64,000 nt of DNA from an archaeon (GTDB lineage Archaea; Nanobdellota; Nanobdellia; Parvarchaeales; Parvarchaeaceae): positions 1,634 to 65,633 of the forward strand of contig JBBIPE010000001.1 in the NCBI GenBank assembly GCA_037443005.1, read 5' to 3'. Positions 4,050 to 62,021 of this stretch are shown in pieces. Every line of letters begins with the position of its first letter. The stretch's first letter is position 1. Made by a program: the position numbers and the translations under genes. The notes under the pieces are model-generated. The model saw nothing but the letters and a program-made list of their open reading frames with translations. It ran no database searches and was not told the DNA's origin.

Positions 4050-6779
4050 TCATTTTATGATAAGCATCGGTTTACCTGGCATGGCCTTGTCTTCTTTGCT
4101 TTCCTCTATTTTTATCTTAGATCCCAAATTCTTTTCGATTATTGTCTTTATCTCCTCAAATACTCTTATTTCTTTATCTCTGTCAAGTTTTTTATCCGGC
4201 AGTCTTTTCGGGTTTTTAAGCAGTCTGTTTACAAAGTCGTTTACGGGCAGGCCTTTCCTTAATTCGGAAGGATTTCTGTCTATACTCGCCTTTTCTCTTA
4301 TTTTATTGTATATATCAAACTTTTCCTCAGTTGCTATACCTATTATAATCTCTTTTGGATTACTTTTTGTTATTTTTATCAGACTGTTTATGTCATCGAT
4401 TGTTTTATTTGCAGTATCAAATTCGTTTTCTACTATCTCATTATCATACTCTTTTTTAGTCTCTGGCCAGCTTTTCTGTCTTTCCAGCAATTCTCCCCCA
4501 TTTATTACACTATTAATTTCCTCAGTTACGAATGGGAATATAGGGTGGTTTAGCTTTGAGAAGATAATAAGCGCGTATTTTATCGTTTCTTTGTTGTTTC
4601 CGCCGTAGTTTATATACTGCTTTATATCCTCTGTAAACTCGAAAAACGAGTAATTCACCGCATTTTTATATTTCATGTTCTCATATTCTTTTTCCGTATT
4701 CTTTATAAGGCGGTTTATTTTGGAAAGAAGGAATTCGTCTATAAGCTTTCTTTCTCCCTGAAAGCTTTCAATTATCTCTGTAAGATCCAATATGAACACT
4801 ATTTTCTGTTTAAAGCCGTTTATGTTGTCTAAATCCCAATCTGCATCATCCATACCGTTTGATGCGGATGCTATGAGCCTGGCAGAATCAGCACCGTATT
4901 CATTTACAACATAGTCTATAGTCATAGTGTTGCCCTTTGACTTGCTCATCTTCTGCTTGTTTACTGTCAACCAGCCGTTTATGCTTATCCCTCTTGGAAG
5001 TTTATCCTTGCTGAATATTGCTATATGGTTCATTATAAAGAAAGCTATATGATTTGTTATTAGCTCCTTTGCTGTAACTCTCAAGTCTAGAGGATACCAA
5101 TACTCGAATTCCTTTTTCATTTTCTCTATTTTTTCATCGAATTTCTTCCCGTTTTCCTTTCCAAGTAGGATATAATCGAAAATTTCATCTGTTATCTCTT
5201 CCTCCTTTATATCCTTTATTATATGGGAAAAAGTATAATACGCCATATATATTGTTGAATCACTTAAAGGCTCTATTAGCCAGTTATTATCCCATGGAAG
5301 AGGAGTTCCAAGGCCGCCTTTTCTTGTAGCAGCTTTATCCTCTAGATTATAAACTGCATTTGTAAGCTGGGCCCTTGCTTCTTCAGGCATTATGTTCATT
5401 TTTCCTATCCAATCAAGAGCTTTCTCCTTTAATTCTTTATCAGAATATCTTATGAACCATTGGTTTTCAACCAGCTTTACGACACCCTTTGCACCACATC
5501 TGCATATTACTTCTTTAGAGGGTTCATAGAATCTGTCATATGCGTTCTTTTTCTTTATTAATTCTATAGCACTTTCTTTCGCTTCTTTGACTGGCTTTCC
5601 ACTTAATTCGCCGTTTTTATCGTTTAATCTACCGTAATTAAACTCTGTTTTGTATACATATTTTGTAGCTTCCTGCAGTCCCTTTTCATCCTTTCCGAAC
5701 TTGTTAATAGCATTTTCAATAATGTTTTGATCTTTATCTACTTCTACTATCTTTATCGGATTATTTAGTTTCATATCCTTATTTATCTGATTATAGTAAT
5801 AATAATCCAGCGGAGCATGCATAGGTACGCTCATCACTATCCCTGTGTTTATATCGGTTTTTACAAATTTTCCATTTAGTACTGGAATGCTTTCTCCATT
5901 AATTGGGTTAGCTGCGCTTCTTCCTAAAATACTCTTTATATCAAAATCCTCTATTCTAATTGCATTTTTGCTCTGGTATCCCAGCTTTTCCGTAAACTCC
6001 TTTGAAACTATCCATTCTTCATTGTTTGACAGGTGTATTTTTTTGTAATCTCCATCCTGATTTATCCAGATATTGCTTACGCCGTATATTGTCTCAGGTC
6101 TAAGAGTTGCGGCAGGCAGGACTATATCACCAAGTTTAAACTTTATTATTGTAAATTCCACTGGGCTTTCCCCTTCTCCTTCTGCTCTGTCATGGTCACC
6201 TAGAGCAGTATCCTCATTCGGGCACCAGATTACAGGGTGGCTTCCTTGTTTTATATATCCGAGTTTTTTAAGTGTTCTGAATTGCCACTCAACGAATTTC
6301 GAGTATTGTTTTGTATACGAAAGTATAAAATTTCTCCTCCAATCGATTGAAGCGCCGATTAAATTGAAGTCGCTTTTATAAGTTTTGCCGAAAAACAACC
6401 CTAATTCAAGCGGGCTGCTTGCAAATCTTTCTATATCTGCATCTGTTGCACCTTGCCTTTTCATTAAGTCTATTGCCTTTTGATCCTTATTTTTCAGCCT
6501 CAATGACATGCCTGCCATAGGACCGCCTGTCATATGAAATCCCTGCGGGAAAAGAACATTCTTTCCTCTCATTTTCTGGAATCTAGCGAATATATCGGCC
6601 CTCACCCAAGTGTACATATGGCCTGTGTGCAGTCTTCCATCCGGGTACATTACCGGAACGGTTATGAAGAATTTTTCCTTATTCTCGTCAATATCTGCTT
6701 CATAAAGCTTTTTTTCATTGTATATCCTCCTCCATTTCTCTTCTATTTCCTTAGGCTCATATTTTGGCATATTCAACAA
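4050..6779 (-). CDS. leuS: Leucyl-tRNA synthetase, archaeal type
   Basis: HTGH (HIGH) and KMSKS motifs; 909 aa class I aaRS. Confidence 0.95.
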   Translation of the reverse strand: MLNMPKYEPKEIEEKWRRIYNEKKLYEADIDENKEKFFITVPVMYPDGRLHTGHMYTWVRADIFARFQKMRGKNVLFPQGFHMTGGPMAGMSLRLKNKDQKAIDLMKRQGATDADIERFASSPLELGLFFGKTYKSDFNLIGASIDWRRNFILSYTKQYSKFVEWQFRTLKKLGYIKQGSHPVIWCPNEDTALGDHDRAEGEGESPVEFTIIKFKLGDIVLPAATLRPETIYGVSNIWINQDGDYKKIHLSNNEEWIVSKEFTEKLGYQSKNAIRIEDFDIKSILGRSAANPINGESIPVLNGKFVKTDINTGIVMSVPMHAPLDYYYYNQINKDMKLNNPIKIVEVDKDQNIIENAINKFGKDEKGLQEATKYVYKTEFNYGRLNDKNGELSGKPVKEAKESAIELIKKKNAYDRFYEPSKEVICRCGAKGVVKLVENQWFIRYSDKELKEKALDWIGKMNIMPEEARAQLTNAVYNLEDKAATRKGGLGTPLPWDNNWLIEPLSDSTIYMAYYTFSHIIKDIKEEEITDEIFDYILLGKENGKKFDEKIEKMKKEFEYWYPLDLRVTAKELITNHIAFFIMNHIAIFSKDKLPRGISINGWLTVNKQKMSKSKGNTMTIDYVVNEYGADSARLIASASNGMDDADWDLDNINGFKQKIVFILDLTEIIESFQGERKLIDEFLLSKINRLIKNTEKEYENMKYKNAVNYSFFEFTEDIKQYINYGGNNKETIKYALIIFSKLNHPIFPFVTEEINSVINGGELLERQKSWPETKKEYDNEIVENEFDTANKTIDDINSLIKITKSNPKEIIIGIATEEKFDIYNKIREKASIDRNPSELRKGLPVNDFVNRLLKNPKRLPDKKLDRDKEIRVFEEIKTIIEKNLGSKIKIEESKEDKAMPGKPMLIIK

Positions 6780-33820: not shown

Positions 33821-34354
33821 ATGGCAAAGATAGCGGAATATGTAGAAGCTTTAATCTTTTCATTCGGTGATGGTATCACGCTGGAAGAGCTTTCAAAACG
33901 CACAAAATCGGATCCTCTTATAATAAAAAAAGCGATAGACTCACTTAATAGAGAATACAGTGAGAGAAAAAGCGCTTTTTACATACTAACAGAAGGAAAT
34001 ATCTATCGTATGAGGCTCAGAAGCGATCTTCTTTTCCTAGTTAATGACACGCTAAAAACCGATATGAGCAGAGGGGTGCTTATGACTTTAAGCTTAATAG
34101 CTATGAGCGGAAAGATGTTTCAGTCCGATATAGTAAAAAGACGCGGAAGTGTGTCATACCAGCACATAAAGGAGTTACAATCCAAGGGGCTGGTTTCAAC
34201 TGTGATTGAAAACGGGAAAAAAGTAGTCAGGGTAACTCCATTGTTCTATGATTACTTTGATGTTGATAAGAAGGAATTCAAGGAGATAAAGGACACTATA
34301 AAGGAAGAGATAAATAAGGAAAATGACAGTACCGTTGAATATCGCGGAAACTAA
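33821..34354 (+). CDS. scpB: Segregation and condensation protein B
   Basis: EALIFSFGDGITLEELSK ScpB wHTH signature. Confidence 0.8.
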   Translation: MAKIAEYVEALIFSFGDGITLEELSKRTKSDPLIIKKAIDSLNREYSERKSAFYILTEGNIYRMRLRSDLLFLVNDTLKTDMSRGVLMTLSLIAMSGKMFQSDIVKRRGSVSYQHIKELQSKGLVSTVIENGKKVVRVTPLFYDYFDVDKKEFKEIKDTIKEEINKENDSTVEYRGN

Positions 34355-36151: not shown

Positions 36152-36175
36152 ATGACAGAGTAGTTAGCGTTTAAC

Positions 36176-36523
36176 AATGTGAGCGGGAAATCCCACATCC
36201 TTTAGGTGGGATGAAAGCGAATCCAAGAAAAGAATATAACAACGAAATGACAAAATAAAATTATGGAAGTAAGAAGAGCCTACAAATTCAGAATCTATCC
36301 GCTATCTGAAAGAGTATACTACTGCAATAGATGCGGATTGCAGATAGATAGAGACACAAACGCAGCAATAAACATACTCAAAAGAGCTATCTTTGGACAA
36401 AGTAGAAGTAACGCTCAGGGAGATTCAGTAAGACCTCAAAAAGAGGCAGGAATCAAAGAACCGAGAACATATCCTGCAATAGCATGGGAAGCCCACACGC
36501 TTTGGCGGTTTGGAGGACGTCAC
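36176..36523 (+). mobile_element. Miniature IS200/IS605-family element (copy 1): LE hairpin, in-frame TnpB N/C remnant, omega-RNA-like 3' region, RE ending GGAGGACGTCAC; inserted 3' of TTAAC
   Basis: Shares LE and 3' blocks with copies at 45198, 52500 and 57288; MEVRRAYKFRIYP plus CNRCG...DRDTNAAINILKRA TnpB remnants. Confidence 0.8.
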
Positions 36524-39500: not shown

Positions 39501-39870
39501 GGAGAATCCACAGGATCTGTTTTCTGCAGGGCTGGATATAGCAGTTGATCTGCCAAACAAGAAAGTAAAGAATGTCCGCGGGCTAAGCGGCGGAGAGCTA
39601 TCAGTTCTTGCAATTTCACTTATAATGGCACTTTCAAAGTACACTGATGCCATATTCTACGTTCTTGATGAAGTAGATGCAGCATTGGACTCCATAAATG
39701 CTGGCAATTTTTCTGCATTGGTCAAAGCCTACTCTGCAACTTCCCAGTTTATAATAATATCACATAATGAGACTACACTGATAAATGCTGATGTTATATA
39801 TGGTGTTACTATGAATAATGAGGGTCTAAGCAGGGTAGTTAGTGTAAAAATGCCGGAGCAGGCCAAATAA
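36550..39870 (+). CDS. smc: Chromosome segregation protein SMC
   Basis: N-terminal GANGSGKSN Walker A, long coiled coils, hinge, C-terminal LSGGE signature; start at MTYIKQIELENFKSF (upstream in-ORF residues are transposon-derived). Confidence 0.95.
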   Translation: MTYIKQIELENFKSFAGHAKFSFVNGFNAIAGANGSGKSNIIDALLFVFGGSSKKEMRSDLLTDLIFNGGKKNRPADFAKVNVILDNLKKEFKSANGDEISISRKVDKSGKSMYRIDGKASTREEVLNVLAMVKFRQDGFNIIPQGRILEIIGSTGDERLNLINDISGISIFEDKKSKAMNEMKKVEDNISKIETVLNEKKKLMDQLDKEKTRAIEFQELKLKQASNLSKQTFFKRDLAYKDLSSIQEKLKDIEKNNQELSSEIDSINLRYKRINEELDNINTKAEAEGEKDISEAEKRTKEFDSELARLNAVLKNDNEQLKSILSSIEDLSKSQEDIRQQVKKEEEEKKKFEEKMEQINSRKFILIEADSKAQNYLKSRETLEKRLYENEKKIYDLKIILTNYPKVADLEDQITKLRETKSETEKKLKDITLSFSALKPEIDKLKIQSKREGDSIYLFREQLLNQRNILSSQSKVIDVVNKLKKEIKGVHGSVSELFSLKDEKFNVPVIRAIGRRSDFIIVDDENVARQCIEKLREEKLGFYTFIPMTTVKTVYNLEKINQEGVIDYIINLVTFSDSYSNAMRFVFGDTILVDNFESARKFINRYRMILSDGTVFEKTGTVSGGHFEIPNILNINRRISDINKEIEEHSKIKEKLDEEIIEKEATLNSSMSEIKLLQNAINEANVNLDKVIKERSKFTGTESEVSEKIRNLENEVLEIKPKLSDLEQGKPEISDHKKEIESLDREVNDLQVKIATSGGRLSTIFMSELSNLEKRFTQLTKEKDRFEKDIEDVEDAINDTRENYEKARKELSSKSDNLTMLRKRRNELINSLSALQKEKDELLSKSQKVGNELNSLKVKEAELKVKFDTADDEFKKYRVNGAEPAEGETLEKVTKDLNIIIAKINSFGPINELALNTFVETQKQYEDFSGKLSSLNEEKERIIAVITDIENKKLESFNKTLSDINSIFTKVFNSITGGSAEFVPENPQDLFSAGLDIAVDLPNKKVKNVRGLSGGELSVLAISLIMALSKYTDAIFYVLDEVDAALDSINAGNFSALVKAYSATSQFIIISHNETTLINADVIYGVTMNNEGLSRVVSVKMPEQAK

Positions 39871-40659
39871 CTATTTGAAGTAATCTATAACCTTTTTAAT
39901 TTCTTCTAAATTCATGCCTTTGACCTGTACATTCTCCATATTTTTAATCTCATCCCCAATTTCAGAAAAAGACTCTTTGCCCTGCCTTTTTGTCTTTTTT
40001 TCTACGGCAATTAGCGCGTTTATTATCGCATTTTTAAGTGTCATCTCTCTTCTTCTGAAAATCTCCTGCAGTATATCATTATCCTTCTTCTTGAGTCTTA
40101 CCATAAGGCTTGTTACTCTCGGTTCCGGATAAAAGACTTCCTTTGGCACCGGCATTATATCTGAAAATTCGATAAATATTTTCTGAACTGAGGAAAATGC
40201 AGTTTTATTATCTTTCTCACAAAGCTGTTCCGCGATTGTTTTTGGTAATATCATCACGCCGGATTTAAAGCTGTAACTAGCCAGTTTTTCTATTATTCTA
40301 TCTGCTATGTTATACGGTGGATTTGATATAATTTTTGTGAACTTTGGGTATATGATATCAAGTGCATCAGCGTTTATTATCTGCACGTTTGGGTCTATTT
40401 CATATTTGTCTACAAGGTATGAATAACATTTTATTTCTTTTTCTATAGCTATAACCTTGCATATATTTCTGGCTTCTATCTCGATACTGCCGAATCCCGC
40501 GCCTATATCAAGGACCACATCACTATTTTCAAGCTCAGCTTCTGCTATTTCTCTTTTTAATATTTCCTCATCAACAAGGAAATTCTGTCCATTTTCATTG
40601 TCACTTTTTATGTTAAAGTCTTTTACAAGTTTTTTAATTGTGTCATTTAAAAGATTCAT
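39871..40659 (-). CDS. ksgA: 16S rRNA (adenine-N6,N6)-dimethyltransferase KsgA/Dim1
   Basis: GQNFLVDEEI, DIGAGFGSIE, NPPYNI motifs. Confidence 0.9.
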   Translation of the reverse strand: MNLLNDTIKKLVKDFNIKSDNENGQNFLVDEEILKREIAEAELENSDVVLDIGAGFGSIEIEARNICKVIAIEKEIKCYSYLVDKYEIDPNVQIINADALDIIYPKFTKIISNPPYNIADRIIEKLASYSFKSGVMILPKTIAEQLCEKDNKTAFSSVQKIFIEFSDIMPVPKEVFYPEPRVTSLMVRLKKKDNDILQEIFRRREMTLKNAIINALIAVEKKTKRQGKESFSEIGDEIKNMENVQVKGMNLEEIKKVIDYFK

Positions 40660-45151: not shown

Positions 45152-45197
45152 TTAAATAAATATGTATTATCGCAGTTTTTAGGCGCTGTGGATTAAC

Positions 45198-45497
45198 AAA
45201 GATAGTGGAAAATCTCACAGTCTTTAGAAGTGGGATGAAAGCGAACCGAAAAAACTATATAACAATAAAATACAATATTAAAAATATGGAGACAGTAAGA
45301 GCCTACAAATTCAGGATTTATCCGAGAGATGTAAACGCAGGAATAAACATACTCAAAAGAGCTACCTTCGGACAGAGGGGAAGTCACGCTCTACGAGATT
45401 CTATAAGACCTCAGGTTGTGGCAGGAATCAAAGAACTGAGAACATGCTCTGCAATAGAGGAGGGATCCACACGATTTGGCGGTTGGGAGGTTGTCAC
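45198..45497 (+). mobile_element. Miniature IS200/IS605-family element (copy 2), inserted 3' of TTAAC; RE GGAGGTTGTCAC ends 3 nt before the nuoJ ATG
   Basis: LE hairpin ATCTCAC-loop-GTGGGAT; METVRAYKFRIYP...RDVNAGINILKRA remnant; conserved 3' blocks. Confidence 0.8.
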
Positions 45498-45501
45498 TTA
45501 A
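45286..45501 (+). pseudogene. tnpB: tnpB remnant (N-terminus fused to RuvC-III motif remnant); stop TAA overlaps nuoJ ATG
   Basis: METVRAYKFRIYPRDVNAGINILKRA; TAATG junction at 45499-45503. Confidence 0.7.
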
Positions 45502-45977
45502 TGGATATAGGCAGCATAGGTTTCATTATAATCTCGTTAATGCTTATTATCACTGCATTGCTCATGGTTGCTACGAGAAACATGATACATTCTCTTCTCT
45601 ATATGTTCATGTTTATTATCTCTGTAACGGCTATGATCCTTTACCTTAATGCAGTTTTTTTAGGGGTAGCAGAGCTTATAATATACAATGGCGGTATAGT
45701 CCTGCTTCTAGCGATAGGTATCAGTTCAATGCCGGAAGGAAAAATAAACAGACTTAATTCAAAGCTTGCTTATGCTCTACCTGTTGTCTTTCTTGGAGTG
45801 ATATCTTTTCTGCTTCTTAAAATGCCGTCATCATCGTATGGCAATACACTTAATTACTCTACCTTTGGAGTATACTTTTTTCAGAATTATGGTGGTTTGC
45901 TGGTTGTGCTTGCATTTACAGCGATAGCCAGCGTATTCTCTACAATATATATAATCAGTAGGGGTGATAAGCTATGA
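45501..45977 (+). CDS. nuoJ: NADH-quinone oxidoreductase subunit J
   Basis: MDIGSIGFIIISLMLIITALLMV... NuoJ TM pattern; upstream in-ORF residues are element-derived. Confidence 0.8.
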   Translation: MDIGSIGFIIISLMLIITALLMVATRNMIHSLLYMFMFIISVTAMILYLNAVFLGVAELIIYNGGIVLLLAIGISSMPEGKINRLNSKLAYALPVVFLGVISFLLLKMPSSSYGNTLNYSTFGVYFFQNYGGLLVVLAFTAIASVFSTIYIISRGDKL

Positions 45978-51565: not shown

Positions 51566-52498
51566 ATGAGTCCAGAAGAATTTTGGGGTTTTATAATTGG
51601 GGTTATAGCTCTTGTTTTATTGTTAGCATCCAGCATTTTCTTTTCGGCATTGTTTTATCTGTTTATAGCAATCTTTATAGTACTTCTTGGCAGCATCTTT
51701 TTCATCGTTTTCGTGAAGAAATACAGCCAGTTTGAAAGAGGAATAATATTCAGATTGGGTAAGTTCAACAGGATAACAGGACCGGGTTGGGCGGTAGTAA
51801 TTCCTTTCTTTGAACAAGAATACAAAAAGGTGGATGTACGTGTAAAGATGATGGATTTAAGTTCACAGAATATATTCACTGCAGACGACCTTAAACTCTC
51901 GATTGATGGTACTATATATTATCAGATAGTAGATCCGGAAAAAGCTACTTTACAGATTGATAATTATGGTCAGGGCCTTTCAAACCTTGTTCAGTCCGCA
52001 GTCAGGAATTCAATAGCTTCGCTTACAATGAGACAGGTTTTCAGTAGTCTTGACAGGCTGAATGATATACTTGCAGACGCTATAAGGCATATGACCTGGA
52101 AATGGGGGATAGATGTACCTTCTGTACAGATAAGGAGCGTTTCTCCATCCAATGAAGTTATACAGGCCATGCAGCAGCCTGAAATAGCTGCAAATCTTTT
52201 GCAGGCGCAGAGATTCAAGGCTGAAGCCCAAAAGATAGTAATAGAAGCCATAGGAGAAGGAGGTAAATCGCTTGATGACAAATCTATAATGTATCTTTAC
52301 CTACAGGCTTTGAAGCAAGTTGGGGAATCCAGCTCCTCAAAGATAGTGCTGCCTATGCAGTTCATGCAGGGTGCCGGAAATATGTTAGGAGGTATAGCAG
52401 GCCTTTCTGCAACGGCTTTAGCTTCTCTTGGAGGACAGGAAAACGTCCAGAACGTAATAGACAAGATAAAGGAAAAAATATCGCGCGCTGGCGGTTAA
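51566..52498 (+). CDS. SPFH/band-7 (stomatin/prohibitin-like) membrane protein
   Basis: N-terminal TM hairpin plus SPFH core. Confidence 0.8.
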   Translation: MSPEEFWGFIIGVIALVLLLASSIFFSALFYLFIAIFIVLLGSIFFIVFVKKYSQFERGIIFRLGKFNRITGPGWAVVIPFFEQEYKKVDVRVKMMDLSSQNIFTADDLKLSIDGTIYYQIVDPEKATLQIDNYGQGLSNLVQSAVRNSIASLTMRQVFSSLDRLNDILADAIRHMTWKWGIDVPSVQIRSVSPSNEVIQAMQQPEIAANLLQAQRFKAEAQKIVIEAIGEGGKSLDDKSIMYLYLQALKQVGESSSSKIVLPMQFMQGAGNMLGGIAGLSATALASLGGQENVQNVIDKIKEKISRAGG

Positions 52499-52499
52499 A

Positions 52500-52985
52500 A
52501 ATGTGAGCGGGAAATCTCACAGTCTTTAGAAGTGGGATGAAAACGAAATTCGGATAAAATATATATTAGCATGTTATTAGCATGTAAAACAACATAAAAG
52601 ATATGGAGGTAATAAGATCCTATAAATTCAGGATCTATCCAGACATAAAGAGACAGTCGGAAATAGACAATATGCTCGTTCTTGCGCAAAGGCTTTACAA
52701 CAAACTACTTGAGAAATCAATTCAGTCATACAAGAACGGAAATAGTAAAATCTCCATGTCGCAGTTCAATGAATTCGAGAAAGAGACAGATACAAATATA
52801 TCAGTAAATATACTCAGAATAGCTACCATCGGACAAAGTAGAAGTAACATTCAGGGAGATTCTGTTAGACTTCAAAAGGAGGCGGGAATCAAAGAACTGA
52901 GAACCGGTAAAACATATCCTTTGCATAATGCGGTAAACACATGAAACAAAGGAAGCCCATGGAATTTATTCGTGGGAGGATTCAC
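52500..52985 (+). mobile_element. Miniature IS200/IS605-family element (copy 3), inserted 3' of TTAAA (which contains the SPFH stop); RE GGAGGATTCAC contains the stop codon of the convergent HAD gene
   Basis: LE identical to copy 1 over AATGTGAGCGGGAAATC; longest TnpB N-terminal remnant; RE of copy-4 type. Confidence 0.8.
52603..52944 (+). pseudogene. tnpB: tnpB remnant retaining about 45 aa of the TnpB N-terminal region fused to the RuvC-III motif remnant
   Basis: MEVIRSYKFRIYPDIKRQSEIDNMLVLAQRLYNKLLEK ... TDTNISVNILRIA. Confidence 0.7.
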
Positions 52986-53701
52986 TTTTCCAGGTTAAGT
53001 GCTGTGTAAAGCTCCTTTATATCCTCTATGATATAATCTGGCTCGGATTTCTCCTTTCTCTTTTTATCTTTGTTGTATCTATCAAAAAGCACAGTAAGCA
53101 TACCTGCTTCCTTTGCATTGTCTATATCAACCTCCGGCATATCTCCAATGAATATAATCTCCTCAGGTCTTAAGCCGAGAAGTTTTGCCGTTTTTATGAA
53201 TGCATTTACCTCTTTTTTGCTTTCTTCTATACTTTCCATTGCTATAACAGTCAAGTCGAAATTTTTCATGAATGGCAGATTTTTAATTGTATTGGATTTG
53301 CTCCCTGGATACATCCCCTCACCGGTCAGTAAACCTATCTTTAATCCGTTATCCTTTAGTTTTTTTATCACCTCTTCAACGCCTTCGGAGAATTCTATCC
53401 TTCTGAAAAGGTACTCCTCAAAAATATCAGAATACTTGTCTAAATGGTCTTTTTTGAATTCAAAGCCAGATACCTTTCCAAAAAGCTCATAGAAAAGAGT
53501 CCTGTTCCTTTCCTTATAAGGCGTATTCTTGAATTCCTTATTTACTCTGTGATTGATTTCATTGAAAAGCTCTTTATTAAGGTCTTTAAAGTCTTTTTTC
53601 ATCTCATTTAAAACGGCTTCATCGGCCTTTTCTATTGTGCTGGATGCGTCTATTAGAGTGTTATCAAGATCGAATAGCACTCCTTTTATTTCTTTTTTCA
53701 T
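52982..53701 (-). CDS. HAD-superfamily hydrolase
   Basis: VLFDLDNTLID motif I; start trimmed to MKKEIKG (longer ORF would run through the tRNA); stop codon lies inside the element RE. Confidence 0.75.
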   Translation of the reverse strand: MKKEIKGVLFDLDNTLIDASSTIEKADEAVLNEMKKDFKDLNKELFNEINHRVNKEFKNTPYKERNRTLFYELFGKVSGFEFKKDHLDKYSDIFEEYLFRRIEFSEGVEEVIKKLKDNGLKIGLLTGEGMYPGSKSNTIKNLPFMKNFDLTVIAMESIEESKKEVNAFIKTAKLLGLRPEEIIFIGDMPEVDIDNAKEAGMLTVLFDRYNKDKKRKEKSEPDYIIEDIKELYTALNLEK

Positions 53702-53712
53702 AAAAAACAAAA

Positions 53713-53784
53713 AGCCTCCGACGGGTGCTGGCCCCGTGACCTTCTGCTTACAAGGCAGACGCTCTGCCGCTGAGCTACGGAGGC
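53713..53784 (-). tRNA. tRNA-Thr (anticodon UGU) with non-canonical T-loop GCCAGCA
   Basis: Manual cloverleaf: perfect 7-bp acceptor GCCTCCG/CGGAGGC, anticodon loop CTTGTAA, T-stem ACGGG/CCCGT. Confidence 0.65.
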
Positions 53785-57218: not shown

Positions 57219-57287
57219 ATAATCTGAAATGATTATTAAAAAAGGACAATACAATAATATTCTGAAAAGTTATATTAAAAATTTAAG

Positions 57288-57452
57288 TTGGAAATCTTTC
57301 ATCCTTTAGAAGTGAGCTGAAGGCGAACTTCTAACAAATAAAATCTCCAAAATTATCGGCTTGTCAGTCTCGCTGGGAATGCACATTGTGTTTGTGGTAT
57401 CATTCATCATCAAACATGAAGCCCATAGAATTTATTCGTGAGAGGATGTCAC
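57288..57452 (+). mobile_element. Minimal (165 bp) IS200/IS605-derived element (copy 4): degenerate LE plus copy-3-type RE GAGGATGTCAC, no ORF; 3' of TTAAG
   Basis: LE core TTTCATCCTTTAGAAGTGAGCTGAAGGCGAAC and last 45 nt align to the other copies. Confidence 0.7.
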
Positions 57453-57529: not shown

Positions 57530-58537
57530 TTGTTTTATACTATCATGGCTGAAAAACTTAGAAACAATGAAATAAGAGTTGATTACAGGACGGGAATAGA
57601 GATACTATTTTCAAGTATAAGAAATGATAGGCCCGCAGATTTTTATAAAGTAAATAATGAATGGAAATCAGATCCCTCAAAATGTCCTTTTGAGTATGGA
57701 AAGGAAGCCTTAAACAAAACAATAAAACTTGTCGGAGGAGATGAGCATTCATGGAAACTTAAGGTAATAGAAAATAAATTTCCCATAGTCTCCCCAAATT
57801 TTGATTTTACGGCTTCAGATAGTTTCTTAATAGAAAAACCGGCTTTTGGTTACAGCGAAGTTATATTTGAGACTCCTATACACAATTTAAGATTTTCGGA
57901 GCTGAAAAAAGAGGATTACTTGAGATGGCTGGACATAATTATAGAAAGGGAAAAATACTTATACTCAAAGGATAGGGTAAAATACGTTTACATCTTCAAA
58001 AATGAAGGCCCAAGAAGCGGAGCAAGCCTTTCTCATACCCACAGTCAGATAATAGCTTTTGAGGAAGTGCCAGAGAGGATTAAAACCGAACAGAAAAATA
58101 TAAATTATTTCTTAAAATCAAAAAATCAATGTCTTTATGAATATGCACTAAATTATGAACAAGACAGGGTTCTTGTTGAAAATAGTACATTCATAGCATT
58201 TGCGCCTTTTGGATCTACTATGACAGCAGAATCAGTAATTATGCCTAAAAGACATATTAATTATATAGGTATGCTTTCACAGCAGGAAAAGATTGACTTT
58301 GTGGATGTACTTTCAAAAGTTATTAAAACGAATGAAACATTGTTTGGAAAATTGTCTTATAATATACTTTTTCACGAACTGAAATCCGATAGTAACTTCC
58401 ATTTTCATGTTGAAATCTATCCAAGAGTGATAACATTCGCAGCGGCCGAATTTGCAGGTTTTAATACCAATCAACTTTTTCCTGAAAAATACACTGACAT
58501 GTTTGTAAACGCTGATAAAGAAAGAGAAATAAATTAA
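57530..58537 (+). CDS. GalT-like nucleotidyltransferase (HIT superfamily, HxHxQ branch)
   Basis: SHTHSQIIAF motif; about 335 aa. Confidence 0.65.
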   Translation: MFYTIMAEKLRNNEIRVDYRTGIEILFSSIRNDRPADFYKVNNEWKSDPSKCPFEYGKEALNKTIKLVGGDEHSWKLKVIENKFPIVSPNFDFTASDSFLIEKPAFGYSEVIFETPIHNLRFSELKKEDYLRWLDIIIEREKYLYSKDRVKYVYIFKNEGPRSGASLSHTHSQIIAFEEVPERIKTEQKNINYFLKSKNQCLYEYALNYEQDRVLVENSTFIAFAPFGSTMTAESVIMPKRHINYIGMLSQQEKIDFVDVLSKVIKTNETLFGKLSYNILFHELKSDSNFHFHVEIYPRVITFAAAEFAGFNTNQLFPEKYTDMFVNADKEREIN

Positions 58538-60308: not shown

Positions 60309-62021
60309 ATGAGATCACCTATCTGTGCTTTTTTAGGGCATGTTGACGCTGGGAAAACCAGTATAATGGATTCGATAAGGAATACAATGTCAGCTTATAA
60401 GGAAAGCGGCGGCCTTACTCAGAACATTGGCGTTACTGAAGTACCGACTGACAGGATAAACCAGATAGCAGAGGATTTACTTAGAAAATTCAATATAGAC
60501 ATAAAAGTGCCAAGCATACTTTTTATAGACTCTCCAGGCCATGAAGCTTTTGTTACATTAAGAGAAAGAGGGGCTTCTATAGCAGACATAGCAATACTAA
60601 CAATAGATGTAATGGAAGGAATACAGAATCAGACAATAGAGTCAATAGAGATTCTTAAATCCTATAAAACTCCATTCATAATTGCACTTACAAAAATAGA
60701 TACTATAAGAGGATTCTTTAATATGGAAGGTTCATCTTTTCTTGAGTTTATAGCAAAGCAGCCGCAAAGTTATATAGAGCTTATAGATGAGAAGATTTAC
60801 AAGCTTATTACTGACCTTTCAATTTATAATTTTCAGGCCGAAAGATACGACAGAGTAAAGGATTTCACAAAAGAGGTTGCGATAGTCCCTTTATCCTCTG
60901 TAAAAGAGATAGGTATAAAAGACTTAATTGTAATGTTGATCGGGCTCAGCCAGAGGTATATAGGACTGGATAAGCAGGAAAGAAGCAGTGCCGCTGTGCT
61001 GGAAGAGAAAAATGTAAAGGGATTAGGAAAGGTTTATGATGCGATAGTATATGCAGGTGTACTTAAAGTAGGTGATAAAGTTATTGCAAATACAGTTGAT
61101 GGGCCTATAGAAAACAAGGTTAAAGGAATAATGCGCTTGGTACCACTTGAAGAGAGTAGGGAGAACTTTGGGAAATATGAAAGTCTTCAGGAAGTTAACG
61201 CAACTACCCCTATACGGCTTATCCTGCAGGAACCGAATGTTATGCTTGGAACATCAATAACAGTCTTTTCAAATGAGGAGGAAAAGCAGGATTTGATACA
61301 GAAGATAAAGGAGACTGTAGGATACACAGGTGATGATAGTAAAGGGTTAGTCATATGTGCCGATTCTTTGGGAAGTATAGATGCGATAAGGAAGATTGCA
61401 ACTTCACAGGGTATAGAGATTGGTAAATCAAAGGTGGGAGAACCATCAAAAAATGATATAACTACAGCAAGTTTAAATGGCGGCGCCATTCTGTGCTTTA
61501 ATGTTCCTGTTTCAAAGCAGACGGCTTCTATAGGTGATGAATATTCTGTAAGGATAATAAACTCAAATTCAATTTACACACTTTTTGATATGTACAACCA
61601 GTTCCAGCAGGAGTCTAAAAATATGAGCTTGGAGAATAGGAAAAGCAAGCTAAGGCTGCCTTCAAAGTTTACTTTCCTTAAGGGTAATATTTTTCGCAGA
61701 TCAGACCCCTGTGTTTTCGGAGCCGAAATTCTACTCGGAGAATTACGGCCAAATTACCATATTATAAATTCAAAAGGCCAAAGAATCGGCCAAATAAAGG
61801 ATATTCAGTCGGATAAGATTAAACTTTTAAGTGCAGTCAAAGGTGATAAAGTGGCAGTAAGCATAGACAATGCAGTTTATGGCAGAACCATCTTCGAGGG
61901 AGATATACTGTATACTGATATGGAGCTTTCTGATATAATGAAGTTCGATGACATTGCTAAGGATTTGCCGATGGATTATTCAGAAGCTCTATCTGATATA
62001 AGAAAAATAAAAATGCTTTAA
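60309..62021 (+). CDS. infB: Translation initiation factor aIF5B (IF-2 homologue), no intein
   Basis: GHVDAGKTSIMDSIR G1, DSPGH G3; 570 aa; SD GGGAG. Confidence 0.9.
   Translation: MRSPICAFLGHVDAGKTSIMDSIRNTMSAYKESGGLTQNIGVTEVPTDRINQIAEDLLRKFNIDIKVPSILFIDSPGHEAFVTLRERGASIADIAILTIDVMEGIQNQTIESIEILKSYKTPFIIALTKIDTIRGFFNMEGSSFLEFIAKQPQSYIELIDEKIYKLITDLSIYNFQAERYDRVKDFTKEVAIVPLSSVKEIGIKDLIVMLIGLSQRYIGLDKQERSSAAVLEEKNVKGLGKVYDAIVYAGVLKVGDKVIANTVDGPIENKVKGIMRLVPLEESRENFGKYESLQEVNATTPIRLILQEPNVMLGTSITVFSNEEEKQDLIQKIKETVGYTGDDSKGLVICADSLGSIDAIRKIATSQGIEIGKSKVGEPSKNDITTASLNGGAILCFNVPVSKQTASIGDEYSVRIINSNSIYTLFDMYNQFQQESKNMSLENRKSKLRLPSKFTFLKGNIFRRSDPCVFGAEILLGELRPNYHIINSKGQRIGQIKDIQSDKIKLLSAVKGDKVAVSIDNAVYGRTIFEGDILYTDMELSDIMKFDDIAKDLPMDYSEALSDIRKIKML

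What the first reader, a model, noticed from the sequence alone, without database searches (positions are those of the whole stretch)
52495..52985. Copy 3 exactly fills a convergent intergenic gap: the target TTAAA contains the SPFH stop, and the RE supplies the HAD hydrolase stop
The SPFH gene ends TAA at 52496-52498, inside the TTAAA target immediately before the LE. The convergent HAD gene's TGA is the reverse complement of TCA at 52982-52984, inside the terminal TTCAC of the RE. Removing the element and assuming a simple insertion would leave the HAD frame open for about 28 more codons, antisense into the SPFH 3' end. The insertion therefore probably truncated or redefined the HAD C-terminus. 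Terminators of both genes must now also lie inside the element.
Basis: seen in the sequence. Interest (0 to 1): 0.6.

Follow-up and report, generated by a model that had tools for sequence, protein, structure and literature searches.

The report
Transposon remnant splitting two shared stop codons
A 487-bp dead copy of an IS200/IS605-type mobile element landed on the TTAA where two tail-to-tail genes of a tiny acid-mine archaeon shared their stop codons, and the element's last bases recreate the lost stop in the same position, so neither protein changed length: a tidy but ordinary result of this transposon family's known target preference.

Summary
The sequence facts are correct. The SPFH stop (TAA, 52496-98) lies in the target motif. 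The HAD stop (TGA, reverse complement of 52982-84) lies in the element's terminal TTCAC. All DNA between the two genes is element.

HAD orthologues at 49-66% identity are also 239 aa and end in the same alignment column. In six related lineages the convergent genes overlap by 4 bp and share their stops in one tetranucleotide (TTAA, CTAA or CTAG).

The family inserts 3' of (T)TTAA and ends at (G/T)TCAC. This rests on 41 right ends in related loci and on published SisTnpB7 experiments. Removing 52499-52985 (487 bp) restores ...GGTTAA|TTTTCC..., a 239-aa HAD (...LNLEN*) and the 4-bp overlap.

The insertion therefore changed only the last residue (inferred N to K) and the stop codon (TAA to TGA). 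TCAC replaces TTAA in the same register. A second case in L070 behaves the same way.

The element is an internally deleted, TnpB-derived PATE/MITE, one of four in the window. A site census shows such a hit is expected by chance (about 15%). The finding is ordinary and of low interest.

The parts
51566..52498 (+). SPFH/Band 7 gene (310 aa). Its native stop TAA at 52496-98 was untouched by the insertion.
   Evidence: ORF; Pfam Band_7; orthologues are also 310 aa.
52494..52498 (+). Target pentanucleotide GTTAA (NTTAA), with the insertion point 3' of A52498. Ancestrally TTAA held both stops: TAA for SPFH, and the reverse complement of TTA for HAD.
   Evidence: All four window copies are preceded by NTTAA. 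In the family, TTTAA outnumbers nTTAAC 40 to 18. SisTnpB7 has TAM/insertion site TTTAA with a free -5 position (PMC11043419). Relatives carry TTAA, CTAA or CTAG shared stops.
52499..52985 (+). Copy 3: a 487-bp non-autonomous IS200/IS605-family element (PATE/MITE-like internal-deletion derivative of a TnpB element).
   Evidence: Alignment of the four copies. Ends match 115 or more loci. The 487-bp excision restores the ancestral gene arrangement.
52499..52547 (+). Left end (LE): hairpin GTGAG-CGGGAAAT-CTCAC at 52503-52520, followed by the conserved core CTTTAGAAGTGGGATGAAAACGAA.
   Evidence: ssDNA fold z = -2.65. On the - strand the hairpin followed by TTTTT reads as terminator-like.
52603..52944 (+). 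113-aa TnpB remnant ORF, an in-frame fusion of TnpB residues ~4-68 and ~361-411. It lacks the RuvC core and is non-functional.
   Evidence: Pfam HTH_OrfB_IS605. BLASTP against the L079 TnpB gives 58% and 51% identity for the two segments. tblastn.
52811..52985 (+). reRNA/omega-RNA scaffold-like region and right end (RE). The RE hairpin is at 52956-52976. The terminal motif TTCAC at 52981-85 lacks the G of the family consensus GTCAC.
   Evidence: Conserved 133-nt block D1. Consensus fold with compensatory changes in 19 of 34 pairs. The RE terminus is family-wide ...GGGAGGATGTCAC, with a variable next base. UUCAC precedes the guide in SisTnpB7.
52982..52984 (-). Present HAD stop codon TGA, supplied by the element's terminal TCAC. 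It replaces the ancestral TAA in the same register.
52982..53701 (-). HAD-superfamily hydrolase gene (239 aa, ...LNLEK*). The third base of the last codon (C52985, giving AAG) comes from the element.
   Evidence: Pfam. P0001 is called as 239 aa. Orthologue alignment.
52986..53005 (+). Right flank, which would be the guide segment of any reRNA read out of copy 3. It matches the empty donor site and is antisense to the last HAD codons. This role is inferred.
   Evidence: By analogy with SisTnpB7, where the guide begins immediately after UUCAC (PMC11043419). Not tested here.
36175..36523 (+). Copy 1 (349 bp), preceded by TTTAA 36170-74. It is intergenic, upstream of the SMC gene.
45197..45497 (+). 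Copy 2 (301 bp), preceded by ATTAA 45192-96. Its RE ends 3 nt before the nuoJ ATG (45501).
57279..57452 (+). Copy 4 (174 bp, ends only), preceded by ATTAA 57274-78. It lies between the GTPase and GalT genes.

Best explanation
Copy 3 is a 487-bp non-autonomous derivative (PATE/MITE type) of an IS200/IS605-family TnpB element. The family inserts as single-stranded DNA 3' of (T)TTAA, makes no target duplication, and ends in (G/T)TCAC. In the ancestor, SPFH and HAD were convergent and overlapped by 4 bp: ...GGT TAA on the top strand, and TTA read as TAA on the bottom strand, within one TTAA. The element inserted between A52498 and T52986. SPFH kept its own TAA. HAD lost its TAA, which is now 487 bp away, but the element's last four bases TCAC took the place of TTAA in the same register. 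HAD therefore now reads ...GAA AAG TGA where it is inferred to have read ...GAA AAT TAA. It keeps the same length (239 aa) with one terminal substitution (N to K, inferred) and a TAA-to-TGA change. The insertion was tolerated because it was nearly neutral. In an 88%-coding genome the only survivable TTAA sites are intergenic ones and stop-codon ones. Shown: the element's identity, its ends, the orthologue lengths, the 4-bp overlap in relatives, and the frame restoration. Inferred: the exact ancestral bases, mobilisation by a TnpA supplied in trans, neutrality, and any reRNA or terminator role.
For: Element identity: there are four copies in the window with shared ends. A TnpB N-terminal remnant is present. 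Copy 3's ORF matches the two ends of the 413-aa TnpB of the full-length element in L079. Ends: the LE motif is preceded by TTTAA/NTTAA in about 90 loci, and the RE ends at GTCAC with a variable next base (+1 = A17, T7, G6, C1). Published experiments on the Sulfolobus IS605 SisTnpB7 show insertion site/TAM TTTAA with a free -5 position, the RE motif TTCAC, and a guide starting immediately after it (PMC11043419). Ancestral state: HAD orthologues are 239 aa and end in the same column. HAD and SPFH overlap by 4 bp in L002 (CTAA), L006 ARMAN-5 (TTAA followed by A), L010 (CTAG) and L129 (TTAA). HAD and LigT overlap by 4 bp in L128. Three other convergent pairs in the window share CTAA, TTAA and TTAA. 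Frame test: a 486-bp excision gives a 265-aa HAD, while a 487-bp excision gives 239 aa and the 4-bp overlap. Independent replicate: in L070 an M24 peptidase ends ...GAEIL on the RE's TGA. Excision at TTTAA| restores CTT TAA at the same codon. Its Pfam domain reaches 208/208, 6 residues before the stop. Both junctions are real in a second assembly.
Against: No empty-site allele of this exact locus was found. The closest HAD is 66% identical, and metagenome scans for both the empty and the filled junction returned nothing, so the ancestral bases are inferred. An alternative 487-bp excision (52500-52986, target TTAAA, RE ending CACT) restores the frame equally well (...LNLEI*). All four window copies have T after CAC, which happens by chance about 1% of the time at 32% T, and TTCACT is partly conserved in Sulfolobus. 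No TnpA or full-length TnpB was seen in the window, so mobilisation in trans is assumed. Copy 3's RE lacks one base of the consensus (GGAT-TCAC).
Confidence: 0.85

Rival explanations
1. The element spans 52500-52985 with target TTAAA. Before insertion HAD ran about 26-28 codons further, antisense into the SPFH 3' end, and the insertion truncated it.
For: A literal 486-bp excision gives a 265-aa ORF. TTAAC/TTAAA looks like a conserved pentanucleotide next to the LE.
Against: Every orthologue cluster from 49 to 66% identity ends at the same column or within 4 residues of it. All relatives show a 4-bp overlap, or a 16-bp one in a single lineage, and never about 85 bp. The published target for the homologous Sulfolobus element is TTTAA, not TTAAN. 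In L070 the TTAAC| model would make the peptidase read on into a tRNA-like sequence.
Confidence: 0.03
2. The same event with boundaries shifted by one base. The target is TTAAA (as in ARMAN-5's TTAAAT), the element spans 52500-52986 and ends CACT, and the ancestral HAD ended ...LNLEI* (ATT TAA). HAD length is again unchanged.
For: It restores 239 aa and the 4-bp overlap. ARMAN-5 and P0003 end in Ile, and ARMAN-5 has TTAAAT. T follows CAC in all four window copies. TTCACT is partly conserved in Sulfolobus.
Against: Family-wide, the base after GTCAC is variable (A17, T7, G6, C1). In SisTnpB7 the guide starts right after UUCAC, and the g(1) construct is much less active on the cognate TAM. L070 fits TTTAA|...GTCAC| exactly.
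Confidence: 0.1
3. The insertion was positively selected. Separating two overlapping convergent genes by 487 bp, or importing terminators or a hairpin, would relieve transcriptional collision or antisense overlap.
For: In the ancestral state each gene's transcript had to end inside the other gene. On the HAD-sense strand the element offers T4 runs and an LE hairpin followed by T5.
Against: The 4-bp overlap is conserved in all relatives and is common in this genome, so it is evidently not costly. The SPFH-sense strand of the element has no T run of four or more. The rate of stop-site insertions matches neutral expectation: about 4% of tolerated sites, against 1 of 4 in the window and 2 of 41 family-wide.
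Confidence: 0.05
4. Assembly artefact: a repeat was collapsed or mis-joined between two contigs, so the stop-codon placement is not real.
For: The element is multicopy, and the Logan contigs break inside it.
Against: Both junctions (SPFH-LE and RE-HAD) are reproduced base for base in independently assembled contigs that extend 43 and 128 nt into copy-3-specific sequence. Copy 3 is only 63-84% identical to the other copies, which is too divergent to be collapsed.
Confidence: 0.01

Closest known systems
PATEs (palindrome-associated transposable elements), the MITE-like ends-only derivatives of IS200/IS605 elements. First named in Haloquadratum walsbyi (PMC3119063); also described in Halanaerobium (PMC7290912).
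   Same: Short and multicopy. It keeps the LE and RE hairpins and the tnpB 3' end plus the RE. It has no functional transposase, no inverted terminal repeats and no target duplication, and it sits 3' of a fixed pentanucleotide.
   Different: The host is an ARMAN/Parvarchaeum-like archaeon. Copy 3 still holds an in-frame N-terminal plus C-terminal TnpB remnant. This copy sits on a shared stop tetranucleotide rather than in ordinary intergenic DNA.
Sulfolobus islandicus REY15A IS605-type elements / SisTnpB7 with its reRNA (PMC11043419).
   Same: Insertion site/TAM TTTAA with a free -5 position (NTTAA). The right-end motif is TTCAC, which is identical in copy 3. A partly conserved T follows it. 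The reRNA spans the tnpB 3' end and the RE, with the guide starting after UUCAC.
   Different: Other copies here end GTCAC. No active TnpB or TnpA is present in the window. Sequence-level relatedness to the Sulfolobus element was not measured. Activity was not tested.
Full-length IS1341-type (TnpB-only) element of Candidatus Micrarchaeum sp. A_DKE (locus L079, NZ_CP060530.1).
   Same: Same LE core, same RE hairpin and GTCAC terminus, TTTAAC on the left, and a TnpB 51-58% identical to copy 3's remnant.
   Different: It is 1.4 kb with an intact 413-aa TnpB. Copy 3 has lost about 290 codons of it.
IS608 of Helicobacter pylori, the mechanistic paradigm for the family (from background knowledge: target TTAC, RE cleavage site TCAA).
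   Same: Single-strand 'peel and paste' insertion 3' of a short target, with a right-end cleavage motif that resembles the target. In both elements the target and the terminus carry a reverse-strand stop in the same register (rc TTAC = G-TAA, rc TCAA = T-TGA; here rc TTAA = T-TAA, rc TCAC = G-TGA).
   Different: Different target and hairpins. The register observation for IS608 is my inference from recalled motifs and was not tested here.

Membership tests
IS200/IS605-family non-autonomous element (PATE/MITE) | Subterminal hairpins at both ends and no terminal inverted repeats | tested here: met
   The LE hairpin GTGAG/CTCAC folds as ssDNA with z = -2.65. The RE hairpin is kept by compensatory changes across 12 family members. 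The ends are not inverted repeats of each other.
IS200/IS605-family non-autonomous element (PATE/MITE) | Inserts 3' of a specific tetra- or pentanucleotide | tested here: met
   NTTAA precedes all four window copies. TTTAA or nTTAA(C) precedes most family loci.
IS200/IS605-family non-autonomous element (PATE/MITE) | No target-site duplication | tested here: met
   The bases after the RE are variable family-wide. Copy 3 has TTAA on the left and TTTT on the right, and copy 1 has TATT on the right. Copies 2 and 4 do have TTAA on the right, which is taken as chance in a 37% GC genome.
IS200/IS605-family non-autonomous element (PATE/MITE) | Derived from a full-length element encoding TnpB, with or without TnpA | tested here: met
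   The L079 element has the same ends and a 413-aa TnpB (OrfB_IS605, Cas12f1-like_TNB, HTH_OrfB_IS605). Copy 3's ORF aligns to its two termini.
IS200/IS605-family non-autonomous element (PATE/MITE) | Lacks its own functional transposase or nuclease | tested here: met
   Only a 113-aa remnant without the RuvC core is present. tblastn finds only fragments in the window.
IS200/IS605-family non-autonomous element (PATE/MITE) | Mobilised in trans by a Y1 (HUH) TnpA | not tested
   No TnpA was looked for outside the window, and none is evident inside it. Mobilisation would need the whole genome or an experiment.
TnpB-reRNA (omega-RNA) system with TTTAA TAM (SisTnpB7-like) | A TAM equal to the insertion site lies next to the LE, and the RE ends in UUCAC followed by the guide | tested here: met
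   GTTAA lies at 52494-98 and TTCAC at 52981-85, compared with PMC11043419.
TnpB-reRNA (omega-RNA) system with TTTAA TAM (SisTnpB7-like) | A conserved structured RNA scaffold spans the tnpB 3' end and the RE | tested here: inconclusive
   The RNAalifold consensus has compensatory changes in 19 of 34 pairs, and copy 3 fits it. However, no Rfam family matches, and no expression data were available.
TnpB-reRNA (omega-RNA) system with TTTAA TAM (SisTnpB7-like) | An active TnpB that binds the reRNA and cleaves TAM-flanked targets | not testable with these tools
   There is no intact TnpB in the window. Activity needs biochemistry.
Convergent gene pair sharing a stop tetranucleotide (4-bp overlap), as the ancestral state of this locus | Orthologous pairs overlap by 4 bp with both stops in one NTAN tetranucleotide, and protein lengths are conserved | tested here: met
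   L002 CTAA, L006 TTAA, L010 CTAG, L129 TTAA and L128 CTAA. HAD is 239 aa and SPFH 310 aa throughout. The 487-bp excision recreates this arrangement in the window.

The most novel reading that the evidence does not exclude
The right-end terminus (G/T)TCAC of TTTAA-targeting IS605-family elements may be maintained partly because it carries a replacement stop codon (TCA, read as TGA on the other strand) in exactly the register of the TTA it displaces. That would make insertions into the TAA stops of convergent genes systematically harmless. Such a built-in 'stop-codon patch' would widen the set of safe landing sites in very compact genomes such as those of ARMAN/DPANN archaea. A related possibility is that reRNA read out of such copies, whose guide is antisense to the last codons of the convergent gene, has a regulatory effect.
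Probability: 0.08. Interest if true: 0.5.

Novelty: new member of a known kind. Interest (0 to 1): 0.22.

Why it matters
The main value is as a correction. The HAD hydrolase is intact, not truncated, and no unusual mechanism is needed. There are three smaller points of value. First, comparison with the orthologous empty sites gives natural, base-resolution evidence that this uncultivated-archaeon subfamily inserts 3' of TTAA and ends at TCAC, the same as the experimentally characterised Sulfolobus element. Second, it is a clean example of how target specificity (TTAA contains TAA on both strands) combined with extreme gene density sends surviving insertions onto stop codons. Because the terminus resembles the target, the displaced stop is regenerated. 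Third, it warns annotators about three things: element boundaries that are off by one base, ORF starts wrongly extended into these elements, and a tRNA read through as protein.

Tried and rejected
(1) RE ending in CACT. I considered this because all four window copies have T after CAC, but the family-wide +1 base is variable and the SisTnpB7 guide starts right after UUCAC. I kept it only as a minor rival.

(2) TTAA target-site duplication of the piggyBac type. Copies 2 and 4 have TTAA on both sides, but copies 1 and 3 and the wider family do not.

(3) RE truncated at ...GGAT with TCAC as native flank. This excision destroys the SPFH stop, and TCAC is conserved in every copy.

(4) Empty-site allele search. 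The closest HAD protein is only 66% identical and P0001's cluster has a single member. Metagenome scans for the predicted empty junction and, as a control, for the filled junction both returned nothing, so the negative is uninformative.

(5) Rfam match for an omega-RNA/reRNA. There was none.

(6) The bacterial-type promoter/terminator scan. It is of little value for an archaeon. I used it only to note the LE hairpin followed by T5 on the minus strand.

(7) Provenance of the source genome. The cluster look-up gave no accession or name. The organism is inferred as ARMAN/Parvarchaeum-like from the best named homologue, ARMAN-5 at 61% identity, and from conserved gene order.
Full report
OBSERVATION. 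An SPFH/Band 7 gene (51566-52498, + strand, 310 aa; Pfam Band_7 E=2.6e-34) ends with TAA at 52496-98, inside ...GGTTAAAAATG.... A HAD-superfamily hydrolase lies on the minus strand at 52982-53701. It is 239 aa when started at MKKEIKGVLFDLDNTL, the start used by the public gene call P0001 (HAD_2 E=5.6e-20). It ends with TGA, the reverse complement of TCA 52982-84, inside the terminal TTCAC of a repeat. Every base between the two stops belongs to that repeat. Both junctions are reproduced exactly in independently assembled Logan contigs of run SRR11582165. Those contigs extend 43 nt (L001) and 128 nt (L127) into copy-specific sequence before breaking, so the arrangement is real.

WHAT THE ELEMENT IS. 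The window holds four copies with the same ends: 36175-36523, 45197-45497, 52499-52985 and 57279-57452. The ORF inside copy 3 (52603-52944, 113 aa) carries the HTH_OrfB_IS605 domain. It aligns to the two termini of a 413-aa TnpB (residues 4-68 at 58% identity and 361-411 at 51%). That TnpB sits between the same ends in Candidatus Micrarchaeum sp. A_DKE (L079), and it has the OrfB_IS605 and Cas12f1-like_TNB domains. A scan of one genome per species with the LE core found more than 115 loci. Most are in Micrarchaeota, Parvarchaeota, Nanoarchaeota, Thermoplasmata and other archaea, and a few are in Bacillaceae. The copies are therefore internally deleted, non-autonomous IS200/IS605-family elements, the type the literature calls PATEs (PMC7290912; PMC3119063). 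No intact TnpB is in the window. The last ~175 nt fold into a conserved multi-helix structure with compensatory changes in 19 of 34 pairs, and copy 3 fits it. This is what a retained reRNA/omega-RNA scaffold plus RE hairpin would look like. Rfam has no matching family.

WHERE THE ELEMENT ENDS. Across 41 right ends in the family, conservation stops at ...GGGAGGATGTCAC, and the next base is variable (A17, T7, G6, C1 in the strict set). Copy 3 therefore ends at C52985. Its terminus TTCAC lacks the G of the consensus. On the left, the hairpin GTGAGCGGGAAATCCCAC is preceded by TTTAAC in 40 loci and nTTAAC in 18. Sister subfamilies show TTTAT, TTTAC and TTTAG, which fits a TTTAN pentanucleotide followed by the first base of the element. 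The homologous Sulfolobus islandicus IS605-type system has been tested experimentally (PMC11043419). Its insertion site/TAM is TTTAA and the -5 T is dispensable (NTTAA). The fully conserved right-end motif is TTCAC, TTCACT is only partly conserved, and the guide starts immediately after UUCAC. By that standard copy 3 has target GTTAA (52494-98) and spans 52499-52985, which is 487 bp.

THE KEY TEST: THE HAD C-TERMINUS. A protein search returned orthologues at 49-66% identity. P0002, P0003, P0004 (ARMAN-5), P0005 and P0007 are exactly 239 aa. Together with P0008 (237 aa, shorter at the N-terminus) they end in the same alignment column as ...LNLEK. Seven of the remaining clusters run 4 residues longer.

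Genomic context makes the reason plain. In L002, L006, L010 and L129, HAD and SPFH are convergent and overlap by exactly 4 bp, with both stops in one tetranucleotide: tcCTAAat, aatTTAAAtat, tcCTAGgc and gaaTTAAgaa. In L128, HAD has the same 4-bp overlap with a different convergent neighbour. In L130 the overlap is 16 bp because HAD runs 4 codons on. SPFH is 310 aa wherever it is the convergent neighbour. Three other convergent pairs in this window share CTAA, TTAA and TTAA (34351-54, 58534-37 and 62018-21).

In silico, removing 52500-52985 gives a 265-aa HAD. Removing 52499-52985 gives ...GGCGGTTAA|TTTTCCAGG..., a 239-aa HAD ending ...LNLEN*, an unchanged 310-aa SPFH and the 4-bp TTAA overlap.

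MECHANISM. The element inserted 3' of the TTAA that held both stop codons. SPFH keeps its TAA. HAD is cut off from its TAA, but the last four bases of the element, TCAC, occupy the place of TTAA next to the right flank. On the HAD strand TTAA reads T-TAA and TCAC reads G-TGA. A stop therefore reappears in the same codon position, and only the third base of the last sense codon changes (AAT to AAG, N to K, inferred). This is a built-in consequence of the terminus resembling the target. I treat the reason for that resemblance as inference: TnpA recognises both cleavage sites in a similar way.

An independent replicate exists. In L070 (a Micrarchaeota MAG) a 289-bp copy abuts an M24 peptidase whose ORF ends ...GAEIL on the RE's TGA. 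Excision at TTTAA|...GTCAC| restores ...ATA CTT TAA, which gives the same length and the same residue. The TTAAC| model would instead let the frame run on into a tRNA-like sequence. The Peptidase_M24 domain reaches profile position 208/208, 6 residues before the stop.

IS IT MORE THAN CHANCE? No. With rough gene calls (88% coding), TTAA-adjacent insertion points in the window divide into 661 that would disrupt a CDS, 196 intergenic and 7 stop-neutral. Among tolerated sites, about 4% are stop-neutral. The chance that at least one of four copies sits on such a site is about 15%. The family-wide rate, 2 of 41 right ends with a long convergent ORF ending on the RE's TGA, agrees with this. The other three window copies are intergenic.

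TERMINATORS. On the SPFH-sense strand the element has no run of four or more T. The first is TTTT at 52986-89, just past the RE. On the HAD-sense strand there are T4 runs about 70 and 105 nt past the stop, and at the far end the LE hairpin is followed by TTTTT (52521-52497), which the scan reports as terminator-like. In the ancestral arrangement each gene's transcript necessarily ended inside the other gene.

UNCERTAINTIES. No empty allele of this very locus exists in the data I could reach. P0001's cluster has one member, and scans of the metagenome collection for both the empty and the filled junction found nothing, so the organism is simply absent there. A boundary variant (target TTAAA, RE ending CACT, ancestral ...LNLEI*) fits the orthologue lengths equally well. 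The T after CAC in all four local copies favours it, but the family-wide terminus and the Sulfolobus experiment count against it. It leads to the same conclusion. TnpA, mobilisation in trans, reRNA expression and neutrality are inferred.

VERDICT. The sequence observation is correct, but its interpretation as a truncation is wrong. The locus is a known kind of element (an IS200/IS605 PATE with a TTTAA target and a TCAC terminus) at a site where its known specificity makes the insertion almost silent. It is a neat illustration and a useful annotation correction, and it is not a new mechanism.

Noticed in passing
window 45197-45503: Copy 2's right end (GTCAC, ending at 45497) lies only 3 nt before the ATG of nuoJ (45501), the first gene of a nuoJ-K-L-M-N run. 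Copy 2 sits in a divergent intergenic region. The promoter or 5' leader of this operon must therefore now lie inside the element or read through all 301 bp of it. The mechanical ORF list also extends nuoJ (45444) and SMC (36484) into copies 2 and 1, which is a risk for start-codon misannotation.
   Followed up: partly
window 53713-53784 (- strand): Rfam finds a tRNA gene (57.5 bits) that ARAGORN missed, 11 nt upstream of the HAD start and followed by a T-rich run. It explains the 'conserved' N-terminal extension (…LRSSA(A/V)ERLPCKQKV(T/A)GPAPVGG…) in the long HAD ORF here and in the 273-aa gene calls P0009, P0010 and P0012. Those are probably gene calls that read through the tRNA.
   Followed up: partly
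window 34351-34354, 58534-58537, 62018-62021 (and 39868-39873): Three more convergent gene pairs overlap by exactly 4 bp and share their stops in CTAA, TTAA and TTAA, and one pair abuts with zero gap. The site at 58534 reads aTTAAa, an unoccupied stop-neutral target for the same element family.
   Followed up: yes
L070 (JAJZLT010000016.1, Micrarchaeota MAS3.bin136), element about 4373-4690 on the - strand of the locus: A second natural case: a 289-bp copy whose RE supplies the TGA of a convergent M24 peptidase (...GAEIL*). Excision at TTTAA| restores CTT TAA at the same codon. The left flank of this copy looks like a tRNA gene.
   Followed up: yes
loci L012, L023, L026, L043, L046, L051, L059, L061, L085, L088, L101: The 24-nt LE core (CTTTAG..GTGGGATGAAAGCGAA) and the preceding GCGGGAA(A/T)GCCCAC hairpin are nearly identical in Bacillaceae and Prevotellaceae genomes, where the adjacent target is TTTAC/TTAC. 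A transposon end is thus conserved across the archaea-bacteria divide while target specificity varies between subfamilies (TTTAA, TTTAT, TTTAC, TTTAG).
   Followed up: no
window 52497-52521 (- strand): Read on the minus strand, the LE hairpin is followed directly by TTTTT (from the target TTAA plus the element's AAA), forming an intrinsic-terminator-like structure at the far end of the element for HAD-sense transcripts. Each copy preceded by TTAAA(A) would carry the same feature.
   Followed up: no
L130/L131 3211-3226 (P0006 lineage): In one related lineage the shared stop is gone. SPFH ends in TGA, and HAD reads 4 codons further (…LNQEVA*), giving a 16-bp convergent overlap. This is a natural example of what loss of the shared stop costs: only a few residues.
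   Followed up: partly
window 52971-52985: Copy 3's right end reads GGGAGGAT-TCAC, one base shorter than the family consensus GGGAGGATGTCAC, and its target is GTTAA rather than TTTAA. Together with 63-84% identity to the other copies, this suggests an old copy that may no longer be mobilisable.
   Followed up: no
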